The notes: generated from the sequence alone by a model not told the origin. A DNA stretch of 64,000 nucleotides from Candidatus Deferrimicrobiaceae bacterium (GCA_963792415.1 CAWBVY010000006.1:320001-384000); one strand, 5' to 3'; numbered from the stretch's first letter, positions 10,245 to 36,775 are shown. Numbers and translations: made by a program.

Positions 10245-10386
10245 GACCTGATCCCCGATATTTGACCAACTGGAGACGGGGATTTTCCCCTGCCGACCAC
10301 AAGACGGTCACAAGCTCCAGTCGCTGACTGGAAATTCTTCCAGACAAGGGAACTTATAGGATTCGACCTTCGGGGTGGTTTCCCGA
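10245..10386 (+). repeat. Boundary repeat copy A: IS3-like end, GGTCACAA-type tandem repeat and tRNA-Met-derived core site
   Basis: About 130 bp aligns with 24705..24834. Ends GACCTTCGGG-GTGGTTT-CCCGA, matching the tRNA anticodon arm layout (GACCTTCGGG-TTATGAG-CCCGA). Confidence 0.8.
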
Positions 10387-13934: not shown

Positions 13935-14063
13935 CTGACCTGCCTGACCTGCTTCCCGGTAATCGTCCAGCTGGTCGAGGGAATTTGCGCTGGAATCCGT
14001 ACAGCTGGCAAACCTCGTGCAAACAACAATCGAGTTTTGTAACCCTATTGGTATACTTCCACC

Positions 14064-14366: not shown

Positions 14367-14651
14367 ACGCAGCCAAACCCGTTCCCTCCCAATAGGACTA
14401 TCCGAGCGGGGGACATATCTTCGGACGCCACACGGACCGTAAACCCCGTGCGTTATCTGGCCTGCTTGAGGAGTAATAGAGACATCGCCGGCAGGGTGTT
14501 GAAGAGTGAAACCCCTGATGCGGGTGGAACGATCACGGGGGCTGGTCATTCCCCTGCCCCTGGAAGCAGGTGATCGCAAGCGAGAACTGCTCGTGCGGTA
14601 CATCCACGGAACGAAGGAAACGGAATCGCACCTACGGCGGGGAGGTTGCAG

Positions 14652-15064: not shown

Positions 15065-15131
15065 CCACCGGACAGCGGACAGCCCCGCTGGGGTGCCGTT
15101 CGAGTCCGTCCGGTTGAGCCGCGGGTTAGGC
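15065..15131 (-). other. Partial or degenerate attC site after the cupin cassette
   Basis: Minus strand GCCTAAC-CCGCG-GCTCAACCGGACGG (R'' and L''-like). The R' end is lost. Confidence 0.6.
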
Positions 15132-15159
15132 CCGACCGTGTTGGATGTCGGGCCTGAGC

Positions 15160-15504
15160 TCACTCTTGCCTGACGATATCGACCGAGATCTCCACCGCCG
15201 GAATCGTTCCCCTGTTCTCAAGCCAGTGTGTGGTGTTCCTATCCTCGGGCCAGCCCACTCCCGGCCCATAGTCCGTAGCGACTCCATTTCGATGGTCAGT
15301 GATCGTTCCTTGCAGTATATAGACGGTGCCTGGTCTGCCTTTGTGGTCGTGAATCGGGCCGAAGACGCCTCCAGGCTCGAAGGTCACCATACGCATTCGA
15401 AGTTGGCGCCCTGCCATGCCCTCGATCTCAGGGCCAAGGTCAACCGATGCAAGCAACTTCACCGTTACACCTTTCGTCTCAGGTGCCACCTGTTCGTTGC
15501 TCAT
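15160..15504 (-). CDS. Cupin domain protein (integron cassette gene)
   Basis: EPGG...HDH...GTVYILQG...THWLENRG. The RBS lies just after the GTTAGGC core site. Confidence 0.9.
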   Translation of the reverse strand: MSNEQVAPETKGVTVKLLASVDLGPEIEGMAGRQLRMRMVTFEPGGVFGPIHDHKGRPGTVYILQGTITDHRNGVATDYGPGVGWPEDRNTTHWLENRGTIPAVEISVDIVRQE

Positions 15505-15530
15505 CGTGCTCTCCTCTCTGTAGTTCCAGG

Positions 15531-15605
15531 GCCTAACGCTCAGGCTGAGCTGCGGGCGCTCAGCGAAACTCACGGCGAGCCGTCAGCTTCAGCCTGTGGT
15601 TAGAC
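15531..15605 (-). other. Complete integron attC recombination site (75 bp)
   Basis: Minus strand GTCTAAC-CACAG-GCTGAAGC-TGACGG...CCGCA-GCTCAGC-CTGAGC-GTTAGGC: RYYYAAC/GTTRRRY boxes, 5/6-nt spacers and two unpaired bases on the left arm. Confidence 0.9.
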
Positions 15606-15681
15606 AGCTTTGTTATGATCTGAAATTGTCACCTGCATGCCAAAGCCGGGAAACTGCAGCGTACAGACTGTCCACTCACCT

Positions 15682-16053
15682 TCACCAGGTTTGAGTAGCA
15701 GAATCGATGGTAACGGCCAACGTGGCTCGCAGCCAACTGTATTTTGCTTTCATGAAATCAAAATCAGGTCCGGATGTTATAAAGGTCCCCTTTCCCTTGA
15801 TCAAAAAGCCGGCACCTGCTCCGTGCAAGCCCTTGACCTTGCTGCTTCCCAGCGTAATCAGCACATCAGGGTTGTGGGCAACGTTAACCTCTGTCTTATT
15901 CATGTATCCCGCAGGAATGAACAACCGCCCGTCCGGTGATATCCTGAGGTAGCTATTCCAGGTGTTGACCATATGCGGCCCATCCTTTCCCAATGTCGCA
16001 ATGGCAACAACCCCATCCTGTTTCATGATTTCCAGCAGCTTTTCCGGGATCAC
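15682..16053 (-). CDS. FMN-binding pyridoxamine 5'-phosphate oxidase family protein (cassette gene)
   Basis: GVVAIAT...PHMVNTWNSY...IPAGYM...G.GFLIKG. GTTAGAC core site at 16092-16086 upstream of the RBS. Confidence 0.88.
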   Translation of the reverse strand: MIPEKLLEIMKQDGVVAIATLGKDGPHMVNTWNSYLRISPDGRLFIPAGYMNKTEVNVAHNPDVLITLGSSKVKGLHGAGAGFLIKGKGTFITSGPDFDFMKAKYSWLRATLAVTIDSATQTW

Positions 16054-16162
16054 CGTGACTACCTCCCTTTTTCGTTTGTTGTTCTGTCTAACAGTTGATC
16101 AGACAAATGAACGTGAATTCTCGTGGTCACAATTTGGACAGAAAAAAGTCACAAGAATTTTC

Positions 16163-16205
16163 AAAAATAAAACACCCACCGGGTTGTGGATAACCCGGTG
16201 GGTGT
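16163..16205 (-). terminator. Rho-independent terminator
   Basis: 14-bp perfect stem ACACCCACCGGGTT/AACCCGGTGGGTGT followed by a T-rich tract on the minus strand. Confidence 0.75.
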
Positions 16206-16307
16206 ATTCTCCTCTTCCAATCGACGGACGATGTAACCCCGAGGTATCCCAAGAACCGATATCCTGGCGCCCCCGAAATTCTCGAATCCTTCGCTTGAAT
16301 AGAACGT

Positions 16308-16613
16308 TTATGCTGTTCCTCCTACCGGGAGATCCCGGAAGGCTTCGTCCGTGATGCGGTCCAATCTCGTCACCTGCATCCCCGATTGCGCTGCCGTCAA
16401 CCGGGCGAGGATCTCCGGGTTCTGCGTGTGGATTGAGTCCAGCAGCCCGCACAACTCCGGCAACTTCCCGGAGACGACTTGCGCGATGCTGCCGCCGCAG
16501 TCGAGCGAGATGATGATGGAGTGCCCGCTGTCGGGCGCGACGGTGCTGACGGTCCCATCCTTGTGTGTTATGACGATCTTCTCGATGGATTTATTTTTCG
16601 TCATGATTTGCAT
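16308..16613 (-). CDS. Hypothetical protein
   Basis: 101-aa ORF with a purine-rich RBS and a downstream terminator. Confidence 0.55.
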   Translation of the reverse strand: MQIMTKNKSIEKIVITHKDGTVSTVAPDSGHSIIISLDCGGSIAQVVSGKLPELCGLLDSIHTQNPEILARLTAAQSGMQVTRLDRITDEAFRDLPVGGTA

Positions 16614-16876
16614 CCTTTCCTCTCAATTTCTCGCGCTATTTGGATGCTCTGCTCATACTTATGGTTCCGCCTGCAGCAGAACCCGTCCCATCTATCGAAG
16701 AAGAACTCGATTGAGATGATGGAGCGGTTGTCGGACCGCAAGTGGCGCGAACCGCTCGGGCGGGACATCTTCGGAAGGAAGGAAGGAAGCGGAACAGCCC
16801 CCAAAATACCATGAGCGCCGTCTCTATCGCTGCCGCGACGATCAGGAGAGGAAATATAACGGTGGGTGGAAAACGA

Positions 16877-16908
16877 GGCGAGCCGTCGGCTTCAGCCTGT
16901 TGTTGGGC
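16877..16908 (-). other. Truncated attC site (left half only)
   Basis: GCCCAACAACAGGCTGAAGCCGACGGCTCGCC is nearly identical to the left half of attC 15531-15605. Confidence 0.8.
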
Positions 16909-16955
16909 GGCAATTATTACGGCTTTGAAAAATTAGGGGCCGCATATTGACGACT

Positions 16956-17963
16956 CTAGGAAGCGATTATGCCTTGGCCAGAACTTAGTATTCGTGCGGC
17001 CTCTTCGGCCATTGTATGCACAATTTCTGCGGCTGGTTGGATACGGGACGCCAAACCGACGCTCTGTCCGGCATATAAACACATGGACTCCAACTGTCCG
17101 ATCGCACCCGGTTCCGGATAGGATGCTTCGTAGCGTCTTATTAAGTTTCCATCACCATAAGTTCCTATCACTTCGCTTTCATTTGGACGGTGGCCTCTCG
17201 GCGGATTTCCAGCTGCCTCCCATTGCTCAATCGTGTCATTACGCAGCGATCGATGGGGAGAATCGGGCCATCCAATGTCAAATAAAGTCGAATACACTGC
17301 ATCGGTTTCTGCGGCTTGTAAGAGCTTCTGTTGATATACAGTGTGAATTACAGCTTCTTCGCTCAACAAGAAGCGTGTACCCACCCATACGCCGGCTGCT
17401 CCCAGCATCAACGCGGCAGCAACACCGCGTCCATCAGCGATACCACCTGCGGCAATGACGGGTTTCGGGGCGACCGCATCCACCACGCGGGGCACCAACG
17501 GGAAGGTAGCCACCTTTCCCCATACATGTCCGCCCGCCTCCCAACCTTGAGCGACAAGAATGTCCACCCCTGCCTCACTGGCAAGGCAAGCCTCGGCTGC
17601 GCTTCCAATCGTGTGCATGACCAATGCCCCCGCAGCATGAACACGCTCGATATATTTTGATGAGTCACCATAGAAAAAAGAAATGATGGGCACGCCTTCT
17701 TCCAAACATATCGCCAGTCGTTCATCTTGCGGCCATGCCAACACCAGATTGACTCCGAAAGGACGACTGGTTAACGAACGGGTCTTGCGGATAACTTGGC
17801 GAGTGCTTTCCAGATCGCGCCATGTTGCGGACAGCATCCCTAACCCACCCGCATTGGAAACAGCCGCCGCCAATTCCGGACTTACGGCATTCGACATCGG
17901 GGCCAGGATGATCGGTATGTCGATATTCAGTAAACGAGTCAAGGAGGTCTGAAATTTCAGCAT
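16956..17963 (-). CDS. Nitronate monooxygenase / 2-nitropropane dioxygenase family flavoprotein (cassette gene)
   Basis: PIILAPM, AAVSNAGGLG, AQGWEAGGH, AAGGIADGRG, GTRF, YAGQSVG. GTTGGGC core site at 18010-18004. Confidence 0.92.
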   Translation of the reverse strand: MLKFQTSLTRLLNIDIPIILAPMSNAVSPELAAAVSNAGGLGMLSATWRDLESTRQVIRKTRSLTSRPFGVNLVLAWPQDERLAICLEEGVPIISFFYGDSSKYIERVHAAGALVMHTIGSAAEACLASEAGVDILVAQGWEAGGHVWGKVATFPLVPRVVDAVAPKPVIAAGGIADGRGVAAALMLGAAGVWVGTRFLLSEEAVIHTVYQQKLLQAAETDAVYSTLFDIGWPDSPHRSLRNDTIEQWEAAGNPPRGHRPNESEVIGTYGDGNLIRRYEASYPEPGAIGQLESMCLYAGQSVGLASRIQPAAEIVHTMAEEAARILSSGQGIIAS

Positions 17964-18074
17964 TGCGTGTATCCTTTCACGATAAAGGTGATTTTACGCA
18001 GCGGCCCAACGAAATTCAGACTGCCTGCTGGTCTGCCGAATTACCAACCCGAAGGTCTTGATCCGAGACTCAAC

Positions 18075-18145
18075 GACGAACGCTCCGGCTTAGCTGCGGG
18101 CACTCGGGAATTTCGCCATGTGAGCCGTCAGTTCCACGGCGATGA
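18075..18145 (-). other. Degenerate attC site
   Basis: CTGACGGCTC...GCCCGCAGCTAAGCCGGAGCGTTCGTC aligns with the complete attC. The R'' box is eroded. Confidence 0.7.
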
Positions 18146-18185
18146 CCCGATCGTGCCCAATCAATGTTGCTCGATCAAGCAAGGG

Positions 18186-19274
18186 TCAGGCTGCAAAACG
18201 GCGCACCGCGTCTTCGTTCCAGTCCACTCCTGTGCCGATGGCGTCGCCGACAATCGCCAAGCCCTTCTCGACCCGCAGCGGCTCCGCGAGGATGGGGTTC
18301 CACCAGTCCGCATATTCAAGCCAATGCGCCGTCGGAGTGCAACACAGGAGGCGCGCACTGATCTCCGGCCAGAGGTGGTTCGAAACGAGAATACCTTTCG
18401 CGTGCGCGAGCGTCGCGGCCCTGAGCCAGCCAGTCACTCCGCCAATCTTCATCACGTCGGGCATGACAAAATCAGATGCTTGCGCCTCGATGGCGTGCTG
18501 CATGTCCAGCGTTCCCCACCAGTTCTCTCCGCACTGGATTGGGGTTCGTGCCTCGCGCGCGACGAGCGCGTGCCCGGCGTAGTCGTGGGCGAGCGTCGGT
18601 TCTTCAACCCACGTGAGGCCTTCGTCGTCGAGAACCCGCAGTCGCTCTACGGCCTCTATCGGAGTGAGGCACTGGTTGTAGTCCACCATGATGGCCATGT
18701 CGTTACCAGCGGCCTTGCGCATGGCCCGCACAACGGCGACGTCCTCTTGCACAGTGGGGTAGCCGATCTTTGCTTTGATGCCCGTGAACCCTTGCGTCGC
18801 CCAACGTTCGGCGGCCTTCGCGCAACCTTCCACGCCATCGTACCCGACTGCACCGTAGGGGCGCACGGGCTTCTCCACCCCGCCCAGCAACCGCACCAGC
18901 GGCATGCCGTGAACGCGGGCCAGCGCATCCCACAGTGCCATGTCTATCGCAGCGAGCGCGATACCGACAAGGCCTTGCGTCCCAAGCAAGCGGAATCGCT
19001 TGGCGAGTCTTTGCTCGATATCGGCAGGAGCCAGCACTTCACCTTTCACCAGGGCCTCAAAATTCCGAATCAACTCGGCAGTCGGCTTGAGCGCGGCGGG
19101 CGTGTAGGTGAACACGATGCTGTGCCCGCTGATTCCGGTATCGGTGACAACGTCCGTCAAGACCAGGGGCGACTCGGTAATCACGCCGCCCGCGGTCCGA
19201 TGGGGTTCCGTCATTGGCACGCGGACCGCCCGCACTCTGAAGCCTTGAATCGTCGGCGACGAATCCCCCGGCAT
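18186..19274 (-). CDS. Mandelate racemase / muconate lactonizing enzyme family protein (mandelate racemase-like)
   Basis: KAKIG, IMVDYNQ, WVEEP, GENW, MPDVMKIGGVTGW, SNHL catalytic motifs; GAGGAGG RBS. Confidence 0.92.
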   Translation of the reverse strand: MPGDSSPTIQGFRVRAVRVPMTEPHRTAGGVITESPLVLTDVVTDTGISGHSIVFTYTPAALKPTAELIRNFEALVKGEVLAPADIEQRLAKRFRLLGTQGLVGIALAAIDMALWDALARVHGMPLVRLLGGVEKPVRPYGAVGYDGVEGCAKAAERWATQGFTGIKAKIGYPTVQEDVAVVRAMRKAAGNDMAIMVDYNQCLTPIEAVERLRVLDDEGLTWVEEPTLAHDYAGHALVAREARTPIQCGENWWGTLDMQHAIEAQASDFVMPDVMKIGGVTGWLRAATLAHAKGILVSNHLWPEISARLLCCTPTAHWLEYADWWNPILAEPLRVEKGLAIVGDAIGTGVDWNEDAVRRFAA

Positions 19275-19513
19275 ATTCTCCTCCTCAGATCAGTACGCCC
19301 AATGCTCCTGCTTGGCAGCGGGATTATGGTCTTTTCTTGGGGTAGTTGATAACTCCAATTCCCGTTATTCGAAACACTTGGTTTCACATTGTAGTGGAAT
19401 ATCGATTCCTGCGGGGAAGGAGATGGGGGGGTATCGGCGGAGCAGATTTTTTCCTGCCGGACTTATACATCGCTTTTAGAATTGTTCATTGTCGCTCGAT
19501 TGAAACTCGGGAG

Positions 19514-22582: not shown

Positions 22583-22699
22583 CCCGCACCTCCTCGCGAT
22601 GATGTTCGCCCTATGGAGTAACGCTCTCCGTTTGTGGGGTGTATGTCAAAATAAATGCGCAAAGGAAATCCAGCGTCAACCGCGTATCCGAAGAACCCC

Positions 22700-22747
22700 T
22701 TTTTCACCCCGAAAAAGCGAGTTGTTTGCACGGGGTTTGCAGTCCGT
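22700..22747 (+). repeat. Boundary repeat family B, copy 1 (GTTTGCA tandem motif)
   Basis: TTTTTCACCCCGAAA...TTGTTTGCAcGGGGTTTGCAGTCCGT matches 32799..32845. Confidence 0.75.
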
Positions 22748-22814
22748 TTGGCTTACCCTTTTAATAACCGAGGTACGTCCGTACGATTTTCACACGAAAA
22801 TACGGGTGGACCGT

Positions 22815-23684: not shown

Positions 23685-23734
23685 GCCTCCCCTTCCTGGT
23701 CCCAATCCCCAACAGGGCATTGAATTCCAGACAA

Positions 23735-23813
23735 GAAAAAGGGGGTCACGATTTCTCGTAACCCCCTGATTTTATATGGTAGCTTGGCCAGGATTTGAAC
23801 CTGGGACCTTCGG
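23735..23813 (-). repeat. att-like direct repeat: 3' half of tRNA-Met plus its downstream hairpin
   Basis: 79 bp, four mismatches against 34322..34400. Confidence 0.93.
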
Positions 23814-24704: not shown

Positions 24705-24843
24705 GACCTGATCCCCGATTTTAGGCCAACTGGACGCGGGGATTTTCGCTTGGTCACAAGACGGTCACAAACTTCAATCGAGGATTGGAAATTCTTTCAG
24801 CCAAGAGAACTTATTGGAATCGACCTTCGGGGTGCGCCCCGGG
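24705..24843 (+). repeat. Boundary repeat copy A' (homolog of 10245..10386)
   Basis: GACCTGATCCCCGAT...GGTCACAAGACGGTCACAA...GACCTTCGGGGTG. Confidence 0.8.
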
Positions 24844-28088: not shown

Positions 28089-28362
28089 CCCCTTCCCTTT
28101 CCCCGAATACGGAATACACCCTCCATGGGGGAAAAACCGAAGCCACATTCTGGGCGCATAAAACCTTGCGGCCAGGCCTTTTCCTCCGAATCTCTTTTCG
28201 GAAGGAGGGGTTACGAAGTTTAGGGGGCAAAAGACCTTCGGGTGGGATGCCTATAGGTCTAGTGACCTTCGGGGAACGGACCCTCTCTATAAGCCCAAGG
28301 CCGGCGGATCCTTCGCCGGTCCTAGCCCCCTGCCCCTCGAGAACCGCGCTACTTGTGGATCC

Positions 28363-28432
28363 TGACCTGCCCCCCTCAAATCGGTCCGAGGTGTGTTAAT
28401 GCTTTTCAGACCGATTTGAGGGGGGCAGGTCA
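28363..28432. mobile_element. 70-bp MITE-like element with perfect 24-bp terminal inverted repeats (TG...CA)
   Basis: TGACCTGCCCCCCTCAAATCGGTC, 22-nt spacer, GACCGATTTGAGGGGGGCAGGTCA. Confidence 0.8.
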
Positions 28433-28622
28433 GGGATTCCGTCGCTTGGCGCGAACTGCTCGGGCAGTACATCTTCGGATTCCAAGGAATCGAATAACCC
28501 CTCAACGGCGGCGCACTTCCACCGAAATTCCATCGCAGGTTTTCTCTCTAATTGCCGATAATAAAAGGAATGATGGAGCGGTTATCGAGTCGGAAGTTGA
28601 ATTCTCGCCAATGAGGTGGCAT

Positions 28623-29435
28623 ATGCGAAGACCTACCGCCGCCTTGATACTGATCGCCTCGATACTTTCCTTCCTGATGGCTTGTCCGATACTCGCGGGT
28701 CCTGTCGAGGACTCGTTAAAAGCATACCGGCGTGGCGACTACAAGACAGCATATCAACTCATTAAGCCGGAGGCTGAGAAGGGGGACGACGTCGCCCAGT
28801 TTACCCTCGGCTACATGTATGACGAAGGGAAAGGTGTTCCTCAGGATTACGCCGAGGCGGCGAAGTGGTACAGAAGAGCGGCAAAACAAGGGAATAAAGC
28901 CGCCCAGCACAACCTCGGTCTAATGGATGACCAAAGCCAAGTTTCGAAAGACCGCGCCGAGATGAAGAAGTGGCATCAAAGGGCAACAGAACCGCAAAAC
29001 GTCGCCACCCAGCCTGACCCCCGCCCTGTGGAGGGACGCTCCGAGCAGGAGAAGTGGCACCGAGGGGCAACGGAACCGCGAAACGTCGCCACCCAGCCTG
29101 ACCCCCGCCCTGTGGAGGGACGCTCCGAGCAGGAGAAGTGGCACCGAGGGGCAACAGAACCGCAAAACGTCGCCACCCAGCCTGACCCCCGCCCTGTGGA
29201 AGGACGCTCCGAGCAGGAGAAGTGGCACCGAGGGCTAACAGAACCGCAAAACGTCGCCACCCAGCCTGACCCCCGCCCTGTGGAGGAACGCTCCGAGCAG
29301 GAGAAGTGGCACCGAGGGGCAACAGAACCGCGAAACGTCGCCACCCAGCCTGACCTCGGTCTAATGGATGACCAAAACCAAGTTTCGAAAGACCGCGCCG
29401 AGATGAAGAAGTGGCACCGAGGGGCAACGGAATAG
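28623..29435 (+). CDS. Secreted Sel1-repeat protein with expanded degenerate repeats; probably truncated by a premature TAG
   Basis: AEKGDDVAQFTLGYMYDEGKGVPQDYAEAAKWYRRAAKQG. After the TAG the frame stays open to TAA at 29507 (GDVSAHISEAQKLAR...). Confidence 0.8.
   Translation: MRRPTAALILIASILSFLMACPILAGPVEDSLKAYRRGDYKTAYQLIKPEAEKGDDVAQFTLGYMYDEGKGVPQDYAEAAKWYRRAAKQGNKAAQHNLGLMDDQSQVSKDRAEMKKWHQRATEPQNVATQPDPRPVEGRSEQEKWHRGATEPRNVATQPDPRPVEGRSEQEKWHRGATEPQNVATQPDPRPVEGRSEQEKWHRGLTEPQNVATQPDPRPVEERSEQEKWHRGATEPRNVATQPDLGLMDDQNQVSKDRAEMKKWHRGATE
28967..29355 (+). repeat. Coding tandem repeat, 84-bp period (about 4.6 copies)
   Basis: GAAGTGGCA recurs at 28967, 29051, 29135, 29219 and 29303; unit EKWHRGATEPxNVATQPDPRPVEGRSEQ. 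Confidence 0.95.
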
Positions 29436-32585: not shown

Positions 32586-32798
32586 TCCCTTGCTCCTCGT
32601 GGGTTTACAAGGATTTTCTCAAACTAAATCGTGGCAACCCAATCCAAAATTGCCATCCCGGATTTTTCGATTCCGATGGTTTCGCCAATATGCCCCTATA
32701 TAAAACAAGGCCTCTCGGTTCCTGATTGAAGTCTGTTGCAGGTAGGATGTTCCGCCAGACCCTTTCGTTCTCTCATTGGCGCACAAAGGGAAACCCCG

Positions 32799-32845
32799 TT
32801 TTTCACCCCGAAACGACCATTGTTTGCAAGGGGTTTGCAGTCCGT
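32799..32845 (+). repeat. Boundary repeat family B, copy 2
   Basis: Matches 22700..22747. Confidence 0.75.
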
Positions 32846-32871: not shown

Positions 32872-32934
32872 CCGCCTCGAATCGGCCTGAAAAGCATTAA
32901 CACACCTCGGACGGATCTGATGGGGGCAGATCCA
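32872..32934 (-). mobile_element. Degenerate inverted copy of the 70-bp MITE
   Basis: The reverse complement contains the same spacer CGAGGTGTGTTAATGCTTTTCA with eroded arms. It abuts the IS3 left end. Confidence 0.75.
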
Positions 32935-33018: not shown

Positions 33019-33282
33019 ATGAAGAAGCGGTTCACGGAGGAGCAGATCGCCTTTGCCTTGCGCCAGGCGGAAGGAGGCACCCCGGTTACCGAGGTGTGCC
33101 GCAAGATGGGGGTCAGCGAGCAATCGTTTTACCGTTGGAAGCGCAAGTACGATGGGATGGGTGTCGCCGAGCTCCGCCGCTTGCGGCAACTCGAGGAGGA
33201 GAACCGGAAGCTGAAGAAGTTGGGGGCGGATCTGGCGCTGGACAAGCACATTCTCCAGGAGGTGCTGCAAAAAAAAGTATAA
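33019..33282 (+). CDS. IS3 transposase OrfA (HTH)
   Basis: MKKRFTEEQI...VCRKMGVSEQSFYRWKRKY...LRQLEEENRKLK; A8G slippery site at 33269-33277. Confidence 0.95.
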   Translation: MKKRFTEEQIAFALRQAEGGTPVTEVCRKMGVSEQSFYRWKRKYDGMGVAELRRLRQLEEENRKLKKLGADLALDKHILQEVLQKKV

Positions 33283-34127
33283 GGCCGGCACGCAAGCGGT
33301 CCCTGGTTCAGGATGTACGGGCCGCGTACAAGCTCACGATGAGGCGTGCGTGCCGGCTGATCCAGATCCCGCGGCCGACGGCGTATTACCGGAGCCGGAA
33401 GAAGACGTGGAACGAATTGCGGATCCGGATGAGAGACCTGGCGGCGGTTCGAATTCGTTACGGCTATCGTCGATTGCACGTCCTGCTTCATCGGGAGGGA
33501 TGGAAGGTCAATCATAAGCTTGTTTGGCGAATATATCGGGAGGAAGGGCTCTCCATACGGACGAAGGGGAGGAAGAAGAAGATCAGCCGGCTCCGGGTTG
33601 TTCTTCCGGAGGCAAAGGCACCAAATGAGCGCTGGAGCATGGATTTTGTCTCCGATGGGCTCTTCACTAGTCGCCGATTCCGGGTCTTTACGTTAGTGGA
33701 TCACTTTACGCGTGAGAGTCCGGCGATCGTGGTGGACCATTCGATCCCCGGGAGCAAGGTCGTCGAGGTTCTGGACCGCCTGGCGGGACTTGGAATCAAG
33801 CCCAAGGTCATCACGGTGGATAACGGCCCGGAGTTCTCGGGCAGGGTCTTGGACGAGTGGGCACATCGCAACGGAGTGAAATTGGACTTTATCCGGCCGG
33901 GCAAGCCGGTGGAGAATGCATACATCGAAAGCTTCAACGGGAAGCTGCGGGAAGAATGTCTGAATCTGCATTGGTTCAAGATGATCGAGGAAGCCAAGGA
34001 AAAGATCGAATCTTGGCGGGTCGACTACAACGAGCACCGCCCGCATAGCGCATTGAACGACCAAACACCGTCGGAGTTCGCCGAGAACTTCGACCTATCC
34101 CGGGCCGTCGAAAAGGTCGGATTTTAA
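33270..34127 (+). CDS. IS3 transposase OrfB (DDE), expressed by -1 frameshift
   Basis: YGYRR, WSMDF, DNGPEF, PGKPVENAYIESFNG, YNEHRPHSAL. Confidence 0.95.
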   Translation, partial: KKSIRPARKRSLVQDVRAAYKLTMRRACRLIQIPRPTAYYRSRKKTWNELRIRMRDLAAVRIRYGYRRLHVLLHREGWKVNHKLVWRIYREEGLSIRTKGRKKKISRLRVVLPEAKAPNERWSMDFVSDGLFTSRRFRVFTLVDHFTRESPAIVVDHSIPGSKVVEVLDRLAGLGIKPKVITVDNGPEFSGRVLDEWAHRNGVKLDFIRPGKPVENAYIESFNGKLREECLNLHWFKMIEEAKEKIESWRVDYNEHRPHSALNDQTPSEFAENFDLSRAVEKVGF

Positions 34128-34321
34128 CCTTGGAAAGTGTCGAAGAACGGGGGGACCCTCAATCCCAACGTTGATTCCTCTTTTATTGGCCGTCATAGGG
34201 GGCGCGATGCTCCCAATTCCATAACCTAGGATTTTCTGCCAAACCCCAATTGGGAAATATGAGATGCCTGGGACTTCGATTGCTGTTGGGGATATTGTTG
34301 GGGGTGAAGTATTTCGGACAT

Positions 34322-34361
34322 GAAAAAGGGGGTCACGATTTCTCGTAACCCCCTGTTTTTA
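34322..34361 (-). terminator. Hairpin terminator after tRNA-Met
   Basis: GGGGGTCACGA-TTTC-TCGTAACCCCC stem flanked by A and T tracts. Confidence 0.75.
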
Positions 34362-34363
34362 TT

Positions 34364-34440
<77 letters not shown>

Positions 34441-35752: not shown

Positions 35753-36775
35753 GTGGCGGCAATGCGTATCGATCAACGCGGGAAATCGAATTCCATCAAG
35801 GATCTGCTGGTCAAGATCGCCAGGCGGGAGCACTTGGAGATCTTCGAAGGGGACTCTACTCCCTTTTCCGTTTACGCATCGGCCTGGCTGGAGAGGAAGA
35901 AGGCGACCCTTGCCCGCTCCACCTATGGCGATTATCGTTCGATCTGGAAGAAATATGTCCTCCCCCACTTCGGGAACATTCCGCTATGCCGGGTGACGAG
36001 GCGCGACGTGGAAGCGTTCCTCGACAACCTCCCGGAGATCTCCGCGAAGCGGAAGAACAACATCATGGTTCCGCTGAAGTGTCTCTTCAACGACGCCAGC
36101 CGGCGCGGAGAGATCGACGAGCCCCCCTCCGAGAACATCCGGCGCTTAAAGGAAATAAAGCCGTTCATCGATCCCTTCTCCTTCAGTGAAATGAAGCTTC
36201 TCCTGGAACACGTCGATCCCCATTACGGGGCGTATTTCACGACCGCGTTCCTGACGGGGATGCGGCCCAACGAGATGATCGCGCTCAAATGGTCCCAGGT
36301 GGATTTCGAAATGCGGTGCATCACCGTTCGGGAAGGCCGCGTCCTTGGAATCGAAGGACCGCCCAAGACGATGTCTTCCTATCGCGACATCGACATGCTC
36401 GATCCCCTCTTCGAGGCGCTGCGGAAGCATCAAGAGGGGGCTCGACCGGGATCGACGTACGTTTTCCCGGGGAAAACCGGCAGGCCGGTCGAAGTCAACA
36501 ACCTTCGGAAACGGGTCTGGTATCCCGCGATCGCCGCGGCCGGGTTGCGCCGGCGCACGATGTACCAGACGCGGCACACCTTCGCGTCGCTCATGCTTGG
36601 CCACGGCGAGGATCCGCTCTGGGTGGCGCGCATGCTGGGACACGCCGGCCTGGACATGATCTTCAAACATTACGGGAAGTTCATACGGAACCGCTCCCGG
36701 AAGGACGGTGGAAGGTTTCTGGAGGGGCTGAAGGAGGCGGAGGCTTTCCTGCAATCGGGCAGGCGGACAACCTAA
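35753..36775 (+). CDS. Phage/ICE-type tyrosine integrase
   Basis: TGMRPNE (R), PPKT (K), YQTRHTFAS, MLGH, KHY catalytic set; SAM-like core-binding domain; short N-terminus. Confidence 0.93.
   Translation: MAAMRIDQRGKSNSIKDLLVKIARREHLEIFEGDSTPFSVYASAWLERKKATLARSTYGDYRSIWKKYVLPHFGNIPLCRVTRRDVEAFLDNLPEISAKRKNNIMVPLKCLFNDASRRGEIDEPPSENIRRLKEIKPFIDPFSFSEMKLLLEHVDPHYGAYFTTAFLTGMRPNEMIALKWSQVDFEMRCITVREGRVLGIEGPPKTMSSYRDIDMLDPLFEALRKHQEGARPGSTYVFPGKTGRPVEVNNLRKRVWYPAIAAAGLRRRTMYQTRHTFASLMLGHGEDPLWVARMLGHAGLDMIFKHYGKFIRNRSRKDGGRFLEGLKEAEAFLQSGRRTT

What the first reader, a model, noticed from the sequence alone, without database searches (positions are those of the whole stretch)
15065..19303. Integron cassette cluster without an integron integrase (CALIN-like), with three matching R-box pairs
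Seen: one complete 75-bp attC (15531-15605) and three related partial sites (15065-15131, 16877-16908, 18075-18145), all oriented with the minus-strand genes. For three cassettes the GTTRRRY in front of the gene is the exact reverse complement of the RYYYAAC behind it: GTTAGGC/GCCTAAC (cupin), GTTAGAC/GTCTAAC (FMN-binding protein) and GTTGGGC/GCCCAAC (nitronate monooxygenase). The mandelate racemase gene has a degenerate ATTGGGC at 19303-19297. Known: this complementarity is the signature of cassettes that once existed as circles. No IntI is visible in the window. Inference: cassettes were inserted in trans or carried in as fragments, then interrupted by other elements. The cargo is metabolic or redox enzymes, not resistance genes.
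Basis: partly seen in the sequence, partly recalled or inferred. Interest (0 to 1): 0.75.

Follow-up and report, generated by a model that had tools for sequence, protein, structure and literature searches.

The report
Decayed integron cassette cluster, no integrase
Four enzyme genes, at least three of them delivered as integron gene cassettes, sit largely frozen in a variable chromosome region without their integrase; this is a known kind of element, with the added detail that two cassettes still carry a worn copy of the site where the integrase docks them.

Summary
15605-15531 (minus strand) is a full attC: a covariance model built only from 14 class 1 integron attC sites scores it 32.4 bits, E 1e-5, the only clear hit in the window. 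The three partial sites and three complementary R-box pairs are real, and neither tyrosine recombinase in the window is IntI. The same attC family forms a 24-site array behind a complete intI in a GTDB genome. The cupin cassette recurs at 95.6% identity in another genome between different neighbours, with identity starting exactly at the G|TT crossover.

Corrections: this is not one interrupted array. The GTT sites heading the NMO and FMN-binding cassettes are not attC remnants but resemble the attI core of related integrons (ranks 1 and 2 of 43 candidate sites). Only one attC is intact, so the cluster is largely frozen. The racemase gene is only a probable cassette. The 'NMO' is an NMO/FabK-family flavoprotein of unknown activity.

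Relatives show whole, broken and absent intI beside such attI sites. Verdict: a new member of a common kind (small, decayed CALIN), with a speculative lead that tRNA-Met-type island junctions delivered the pieces.

The parts
19297..19323 (-). Possible 3' half of a decayed attC (L'-like, spacer, R'-like ATTGGGC) heading the racemase gene
   Evidence: Third-ranked position in the window with a 3'-half matrix, 5.1 against 3.1 for the next background site; weak
18186..19274 (-). Mandelate racemase-like enzyme, 362 aa, intact; probable cassette
   Evidence: Pfam MR_MLE_N/C; E 3e-105 to solved mandelate racemases, KxK, DxN, EE, GEN, D, H and E motifs aligned (their catalytic roles are recalled); 52.6% to Burkholderia proteins annotated mandelate racemase
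18155..18172 (+). Unexplained opposite-strand attI-like box pair (GCCCAAT, 4 nt, GTT) just before the damaged 5' end of the next attC
   Evidence: Rank 1 of 1498 GTT sites with the 7-nt matrix; one perfect match in the window is what chance could give
18075..18147 (-). Damaged attC: stem, L', spacer and GTT kept (18131-18079), R'' and L'' lost; R' is GTTCGTC, not GTTRRRY
   Evidence: R1 36.5 bits; 92% over 53 nt to an intact attC in L010; no hairpin above chance
18041..18068 (-). 28-nt segment behind the last attC, ending in ACCTTCGGGTTGGTAA (mirror of the tRNA-Met anticodon arm); probable island junction
   Evidence: 89% identical to L014 4754-4781, which likewise follows an array's last attC and there runs into a tRNA-Met 3' fragment
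18004..18021 (-). attI-like core a (GTCTGAA, 4 nt, G|TTGGGC); crossover after G18010
   Evidence: Same spacing as the attI of L020, L008, L015, L006, L005; rank 2 or 1 of 43 GTTRRRY sites, score below all 7 training sites
16956..17963 (-). NMO/FabK-family flavoprotein, 335 aa, intact; cassette
   Evidence: PF03060; FabK model 243 against cut-off 453; best PDB hits FabK-like; R pair GTTGGGC/GCCCAAC
16869..16908 (-). 5' half of attC (R'', L'', stem), cut off in the terminal loop
   Evidence: R1 23.8 bits; 5'-half matrix 36.7; 88% over 50 nt to L025 attC
16105..16868 (.). Non-cassette spacer: hypothetical ORF 16613-16308(-), terminator-like hairpin 16205-16172(-), two GTCACAA repeats at about 16127-16156, a 33-40 nt repeat at 16743-16784 found also at 14580 and 28447
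   Evidence: no Pfam or NCBIfam hit, Atlas hits below 0.9
16086..16104 (-). attI-like core b (GTCTGAT, CAACT, G|TTAGAC); crossover after G16092
   Evidence: 14 of 15 nt identical to the attI core of L016 and L025 through GTT, including the spacer; rank 1 or 2 of 43; no similarity further upstream
15682..16053 (-). FMN-binding protein (Desulfovibrio FMN-bp type), 123 aa, intact; cassette
   Evidence: PF01243; E 8e-40 to solved FMN-binding proteins; R pair GTTAGAC/GTCTAAC
15531..15605 (-). Complete 75-bp attC, the only intact one
15160..15504 (-). Cupin_2 protein, 114 aa, intact; cassette shown in two contexts
   Evidence: PF07883; 95.6% over 431 nt to L014 3554-3984, identity starting at G15537; 9 silent and 5 replacement changes, pN/pS 0.17
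15065..15131 (-). attC with R'', L'' and stem but degraded L' and no R'
   Evidence: not found by either covariance model

Best explanation
A small, mostly frozen mosaic of integron array pieces lying in an accretion zone of mobile DNA downstream of tRNA-Met. Step 1 (shown by sequence): the cupin, FMN-binding and NMO-family genes were circular cassettes opened at G|TT and inserted by an integron integrase. Step 2 (inferred): the NMO and FMN cassettes were first in their arrays, inserted at attI sites of the lineage type RYCYAAT-N4/5-GTT, and they kept only the core of that attI, like the truncated-attI junctions known from class 1 and 2 arrays. Step 3 (inferred from relatives): intI was lost or left behind, and two or three pieces (racemase; attI-NMO; attI-FMN-cupin) were joined here by deletion or island-type recombination. 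Step 4 (shown as damage, consequence inferred): three attC sites then decayed, fixing intact enzyme genes in place. If IntI is supplied in trans, only the 75-bp attC, and perhaps the two worn attI cores, could still recombine; the FMN cassette is the one excisable unit.
For: attC validated by an independent model and by covariation of the family stem (96% paired, 26 two-sided changes, 0 of 500 shuffles). Family arrays sit behind IntI (457.7 and 458.6 bits); 18 of 24 cassettes of the CSP1-8 array show the same R-box complementarity, including the first one against its attI. Seven array heads in other genomes define the attI core; a matrix from these seven ranks the two window heads first and second of 43 GTTRRRY sites (1 in 903 if random). 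Of 22 distinct places among the 25 loci, 2 have whole intI plus attI, 3 have intI fragments plus attI (L006, L015, L016), 4 have an attI-type head without intI (L005 after dnaB, L025 after gyrB, L014, L001 with an imperfect R pair). The cupin cassette sits behind an attC here and behind an attI-type site in L014. Cargo GC differs: 50.5, 53.7, 57.1, 63.5% against 67% for 37-64 kb.
Against: The two window heads are degenerate: scores 7.8 and 2.6 (or 2.9 and 5.7) against 6.2-12.7 (or 8.6-15.5) for left-out training sites; among all 1498 GTT sites they rank only 3 and 19 (or 13 and 5). Neither shows similarity to real attI regions upstream of the core. No intI remnant lies near them. 13 of the 22 places gave no clear attI head: 7 had at least 2.6 kb upstream, 5 lie near contig ends, and L023 was not examined. 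The four distant plasmid homologues inspected have no attC. No empty-site genome was available.
Confidence: 0.55

Rival explanations
1. In-place insertion in trans: IntI encoded elsewhere in the genome inserted cassettes at secondary (attG-type) sites here, and hot spots were used that happen to resemble the attI core.
For: Loot et al. (10.1101/2022.09.11.507474, passages and section 33 read) show insertion at GWT sites and propose it for small CALINs. R' of the 18075 site is GTTCGTC, as expected for a non-attI right flank. Relatives carry whole intI at a larC locus. No attI context beyond the core.
Against: attG needs only GWT, yet both heads match a 7-nt left box at the right distance, and head b shares the 5-nt spacer CAACT with two real attI sites. 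The same paper reports attG sites as unlike attI.
Confidence: 0.24
2. Nested shuttle: small non-autonomous modules (island core site, short arm, attI, cassettes, about 22 nt, core site) are loaded by IntI and then integrated in tandem at tRNA-Met-type sites by a second tyrosine recombinase.
For: In L014 an attI and two cassettes lie between two direct copies of ACCTTCGGGTTGG, the second abutting a tRNA-Met 3' fragment. The window has the same 28-nt segment at the same distance behind an attC, and head a follows 30 nt later. ACCTTCGGG occurs 8 times in the window against 1.12 expected, 0 of 100 shuffles; 7 of the 8 lie at or below the tRNA.
Against: Two genomes only. The window junction is not followed by a tRNA fragment, and none was found below 23.7 kb. 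Five of the 8 copies, leaving aside the tRNA itself, one coding-region match and the 18056 site, face the other way. No such core was found around the FMN-cupin piece. No recombinase was tied to the sites.
Confidence: 0.12
3. One reading: one continuous array that was later split by inserted elements.
For: All sites and genes are on one strand within 4.3 kb; foreign repeats lie in the 16105-16868 spacer.
Against: An insertion would leave the 3' half of the 16908 attC in front of the FMN cassette; it is absent (3'-half matrix). No transposase or intron-type ORF was recognised in the spacers. The heads look like attI, not attC.
Confidence: 0.08
4. Chance or a non-integron repeat family.
For: Three of four sites do not fold and one is missed by both models.
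Against: Independent model hit, IntI-linked arrays of the same family, and a cassette boundary exact to the base.
Confidence: 0.01

Closest known systems
CALIN (Cury et al. 2016, PMC4889954; passages read)
   Same: Several same-strand attC-type sites within 4 kb, no nearby intI or intI pseudogene, small size, non-resistance cargo.
   Different: Only one site is intact; the cluster holds two internal attI-like cores, which IntegronFinder does not look for outside classes 1-3.
SALIN / attG insertions (Loot et al., 10.1101/2022.09.11.507474; passages and section 33 read)
   Same: Functionally one working attC; non-consensus right flank behind one attC; possible in-trans origin.
   Different: Heads carry a left box and spacer matching lineage attI, more than the GWT that defines attG.
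Truncated-attI (delta-attI) junctions of class 1 and 2 arrays (PMC12901181; abstract and section 5 read)
   Same: An attI core of about 8-12 nt before the crossover sits inside an array in place of an attC.
   Different: Here no intI is present, the cores are mutated, and the host is an environmental lineage.
Complete integron of Deltaproteobacteria bacterium CSP1-8 (LDXO01000008.1; loci L020, L003)
   Same: Same 74-77 bp attC family and same attI core.
   Different: It has an intact intI, oriented with the cassettes, and 24 attC sites; none of the four window cargo proteins was found in it.

Membership tests
attC site (15531-15605) | R''-5 nt-L''...L'-5/6 nt-R' boxes with RYYYAAC and GTTRRRY | tested here: met
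attC site (15531-15605) | Bottom-strand hairpin with extrahelical bases | tested here: met
   z -3.06; second bulge as in the family; first bulge is C with a G-T pair or a shifted T, not the G of class 1 sites (class 1 rule recalled)
attC site (15531-15605) | Scores with an attC covariance model | tested here: met
   32.4 bits with a class-1-only model of my own; 11 of 16 CSP1-8 sites in L020 scored 14-35 bits with it. IntegronFinder's own model was not available
attC site (15531-15605) | Recombined by IntI as bottom strand | not testable with these tools
   Needs a conjugation assay
CALIN | At least two attC sites on one strand within 4 kb | tested here: inconclusive
   Three sites with the family model, one with the class-1 model; depends on counting damaged sites
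CALIN | No neighbouring intI | tested here: met
   window covers 15 kb on one side and 44 kb on the other
Gene cassette (cupin, FMN-bp, NMO-family) | Start GTTRRRY complementary to end RYYYAAC | tested here: met
   3 of 3
Gene cassette (cupin, FMN-bp, NMO-family) | Found in another array context with the same boundary | tested here: inconclusive
   Met for cupin; no close copy of the other two in 25 loci or plasmids
Gene cassette (racemase) | Complementary R pair and downstream attC | tested here: inconclusive
   Downstream attC remnant present, R'' lost, so the pair cannot be read
attI site (two heads) | Left box plus spacer plus GTTRRRY matching cognate attI | tested here: met
   With 2 and 1 mismatches; ranks 1 and 2 of 43
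attI site (two heads) | Adjacent intI and extended upstream region with promoter | tested here: not met
   No intI, no upstream similarity, no sigma-70-like site before either head; so attI-like cores, not full attI
Complete integron | intI with its extra domain next to the array | tested here: not met
attG insertion | GWT at the crossover in pre-existing host DNA (empty site known) | tested here: inconclusive
   GTT present; no empty-site genome at hand

The most novel reading that the evidence does not exclude
In this lineage attI travels without intI in minimal modules bounded by a 9-7-9 palindromic core that mimics the tRNA-Met anticodon arm. IntI loads cassettes into the module and an island-type tyrosine recombinase stacks modules at tRNA-Met, giving a two-recombinase route for spreading and fixing cassettes and a concrete origin for small CALINs.
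Probability: 0.12. Interest if true: 0.7.

Novelty: new member of a known kind. Interest (0 to 1): 0.36.

Why it matters
CALINs are common (2961 in 21,105 genomes according to 10.1101/2022.09.11.507474, passage read), so the cluster itself is ordinary. Its use is as a test case for how small CALINs arise, which both CALIN papers read here leave open. A lineage attI core can be read from relatives, and it separates 'kept its attI, lost intI' from 'inserted at attG'. Standard tools do not look for such attI sites. If the module reading were true it would add a second recombination system to cassette spread.

Tried and rejected
Rfam found only the tRNA. blastn of the attC against plasmids gave 1 unrelated hit. 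tblastn of FMN-bp, NMO and racemase against plasmids gave only hits under 60%; four of these regions were fetched and none held an attC (best 10.9 bits), so distant homologues neither support nor refute cassette status. My regex-and-fold attC heuristic gave 4 window candidates; 3 are not backed by either model and were dropped. Both window integrases were rejected as IntI. A relaxed attI pattern fitted to the window gave 2 hits against 0.3 expected (8 of 200 resamplings reached 2); being post hoc, it was replaced by the matrix. Promoter and terminator scans were at chance level (2 against 2.9; 5 against 5.2), so no promoter is claimed. The idea that head a is a decayed tRNA 3' copy rests on a forced two-sequence alignment and is not adopted. 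An IS1111- or group II intron-type interruption of attC (recalled lead) found no matching ORF in the spacers. The spacer ORF stayed unnamed. Cluster sizes, sources and names for the cargo proteins could not be obtained, and metagenome and viral contig collections stayed unchecked. Literature searches for orphan, isolated or solo attI, attI with tRNA islands, inverted integrase with attI and integrons in MBNT15/Deferrimicrobium listed nothing describing these sites; I saw listings only for those, and subscription papers and supplements were not seen.
Full report
Observation. Four intact genes lie on the minus strand: mandelate racemase-like (19274-18186), NMO/FabK-family flavoprotein (17963-16956), FMN-binding protein (16053-15682) and cupin (15504-15160). 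Two attC half-patterns taken from the window hit 2 and 3 times against 0.00 and 0.18 expected; these patterns are circular and serve only to show that no further copies lie in the window.

Is the full site an attC? IntegronFinder's model was not available, so I built two. R2 uses 14 of the 17 candidate sites extracted from six class 1 integron plasmid regions (one non-cassette candidate and two duplicates dropped; the Gemmatirosa sites not used). It scores 15605-15531 at 32.4 bits, E 1.1e-5, on the expected strand; the next independent hit is 8.7 bits. For scale, 11 of 16 sites in the L020 part of a complete integron scored 14-35 bits. R1 uses 38 of 63 non-window candidate rows (overlapping copies and long or atypical rows dropped). 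Its stem covaries. It scores three window sites at 87.1, 36.5 and 23.8 bits and misses the fourth. R1 is biased, since its training set was found with a window-derived pattern.

The family. One GTDB scan returned 25 loci, 22 distinct places in 19 genomes. Four loci are titled Deferrimicrobium or Deferrimicrobiaceae and many others Deltaproteobacteria (that CSP1-8 belongs to the same MBNT15 lineage is recalled); Scalindua, Bacteroidota, Dadabacteria and others also occur. The window shares accessory DNA at 95% with L014, so its host is probably of that lineage (inference; core genes were not placed). CSP1-8 carries a whole IntI followed by 24 attC sites, 18 of which show start-end complementarity.

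Mobility. The cupin cassette recurs in L014 at 95.6% over 431 nt. Identity begins at the G of GTT and ends 25 nt into the attC. There it is first in its array and is followed by a flavin reductase cassette; here it is second, behind the FMN cassette. Nine silent against five replacement changes (pN/pS 0.17) hint at purifying selection, on small numbers. The other three cargo genes had no match in the 25 loci, and four distant plasmid homologues are not cassettes.

The GTT sites before NMO and FMN-bp are not preceded by attC 3' halves. In seven other genomes the GTT that complements the first cassette's R'' is preceded by RYCYAAT and 4 or 5 nt; five of the seven have whole or broken intI beside it. 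The window heads read GTCTGAA-TTTC-GTT and GTCTGAT-CAACT-GTT, the second differing at 1 of 15 positions from L016 and L025. Matrices trained on the seven rank them first and second of 43 GTTRRRY sites. Against this, their scores lie mostly below those of left-out real sites, they rank only 3-19 among all 1498 GTT sites, and nothing upstream resembles real attI regions. I call them attI-like cores. Relatives show a series: whole intI (L020, L008, both after larC), fragments (L006, L015, L016) and none (L005 after dnaB, L025 after gyrB, L014, perhaps L001). Thirteen of 22 places gave no readable head.

Damage. The site at 18147-18075 keeps its 3' 53 nt (92% to an intact L010 site) but has lost R'' and L''. 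The site at 16908 stops in its loop. The site at 15131 has lost R' and part of L'. None folds above chance. From known attC anatomy only 15531-15605 should recombine. The racemase gene has a damaged attC 39 nt behind its stop codon and a weak attC 3'-half before it, but no readable pair, so it is a probable cassette only.

Context. tRNA-Met lies at 34364-34440(-) with a 3' copy at 23724-23813. The 37-64 kb part is housekeeping genes at 67% GC; 1-34 kb is a 57% GC patchwork with toxin-antitoxin pairs, an IS3-type transposase and repeated short junction-like sequences. Directly behind the 18075 attC lies a 28-nt segment 89% identical to the one behind the last attC in L014, ending in ACCTTCGGGTTGGTAA; in L014 this runs into a tRNA-Met 3' fragment and a second copy lies about 130 nt before the attI. 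ACCTTCGGG occurs 8 times in the window against 1.12 expected. This is the basis of the module reading. It rests on two genomes, and several features do not fit it.

Mechanism and odds. Shown: IntI-type insertion of three cassettes, mobility of one, absence of local intI, damage to three attC sites. Inferred: pieces of arrays that kept an attI core, lost intI and were joined here (0.55); in-place insertion at attI-like secondary sites (0.24); nested modules (0.12); one interrupted array (0.08); chance (0.01).

Literature seen. PMC4889954 (passages): CALIN defined as at least two attC without nearby intI, four proposed origins, attI searched only for classes 1-3. 10.1101/2022.09.11.507474 (passages and section 33): SALINs, GWT consensus, attG unlike attI. 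PMC12901181 (abstract and section 5): truncated attI inside mobile arrays. 10.1101/2025.06.18.660453 (passages): Xanthomonas CALINs at conserved loci. 10.1101/2022.02.06.479319 and PMC9892861 (passages): assay design. Searches listed no description of these attI sites or of the tRNA-bounded module; the library lacks most subscription papers and no supplements were read.

Verdict. A real, small, decayed CALIN-like cluster: a new member of a common kind. The attI-like heads and the possible tRNA-Met junction link are modest extras worth a lineage-wide count. Interest 0.36.

Noticed in passing
window 10366, 18056(-), 24823, 27313, 28234, 28265, 34393, 44469(-); L014 399, 931, 3413, 4766, 19153, 19694: ACCTTCGGG, half of a 9-7-9 palindrome that mirrors the tRNA-Met anticodon arm, is over-represented (8 against 1.12 expected); the 7-nt centres differ between copies. 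Possibly scars of a tyrosine recombinase that stacks modules.
   Followed up: partly
window 10245-10377 and 24705-24834: 133-nt direct repeat (83%) with GGTCACAA doublets, ending in the ACCTTCGGG core; looks like an island end. Similar GTCACAA doublets lie beside attI-like core b.
   Followed up: partly
window 23724-23813 and 34311-34400: Duplicated 3' part of tRNA-Met with its downstream hairpin (92% over 90 nt), bounding a probable 10.5-kb island.
   Followed up: partly
window 35753-36775: Phage/island-type tyrosine integrase 1.3 kb from the 5' side of tRNA-Met, beside a PIN toxin-antitoxin pair and an ORF6N gene; candidate for the island junctions, untested.
   Followed up: no
window 22694-22752, 32792-32845, 14008-14027, 14427-14451; L007 6017-6098; L019 6320-6396: Repeated 20-55 nt element containing TTGCAxGGGGTTTGC, next to tRNA-Arg in L019; function unknown.
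   Followed up: no
window 28363-28432 and 32872-32932; L014 10121-10182: About 70-nt inverted-repeat element, in L014 about 48 nt behind a lone attC.
   Followed up: no
window 14580-14640, 16743-16784, 28447-28511: 33-60 nt dispersed repeat, one copy inside the spacer that follows the truncated attC.
   Followed up: no
window 18155-18172 (+): Perfect attI-type box pair on the opposite strand, close to where the next attC loses its 5' end; may be chance.
   Followed up: partly
window 33019-34127: IS3-family-like transposase in two overlapping frames just downstream of tRNA-Met.
   Followed up: no
window 28353-29432: Sel1-containing ORF with 84-nt tandem repeats.
   Followed up: no
L005 9671-9951; L025 7837-8071; L006 10417-10748; L015 8500-9279; L016 6411-7650: Integron arrays at several different housekeeping loci (dnaB, gyrB, radical SAM gene, cysG, ABC transporter) with intI absent or broken but attI kept; whole intI only after larC in L020 and L008, oriented with the cassettes.
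   Followed up: partly
L005 9951-11882: DnaB carries an intein signature.
   Followed up: no
L026 21631-40428: Gemmatirosa megaplasmid holds an array of more than 35 homogeneous 94-130 bp attC sites behind an IntI-like gene, in a record without annotation here.
   Followed up: no
L007 374-4554 against window 21385/21386: A relative has about 4.2 kb of extra DNA, with two attC sites of this family, between two segments that are adjacent in the window.
   Followed up: partly
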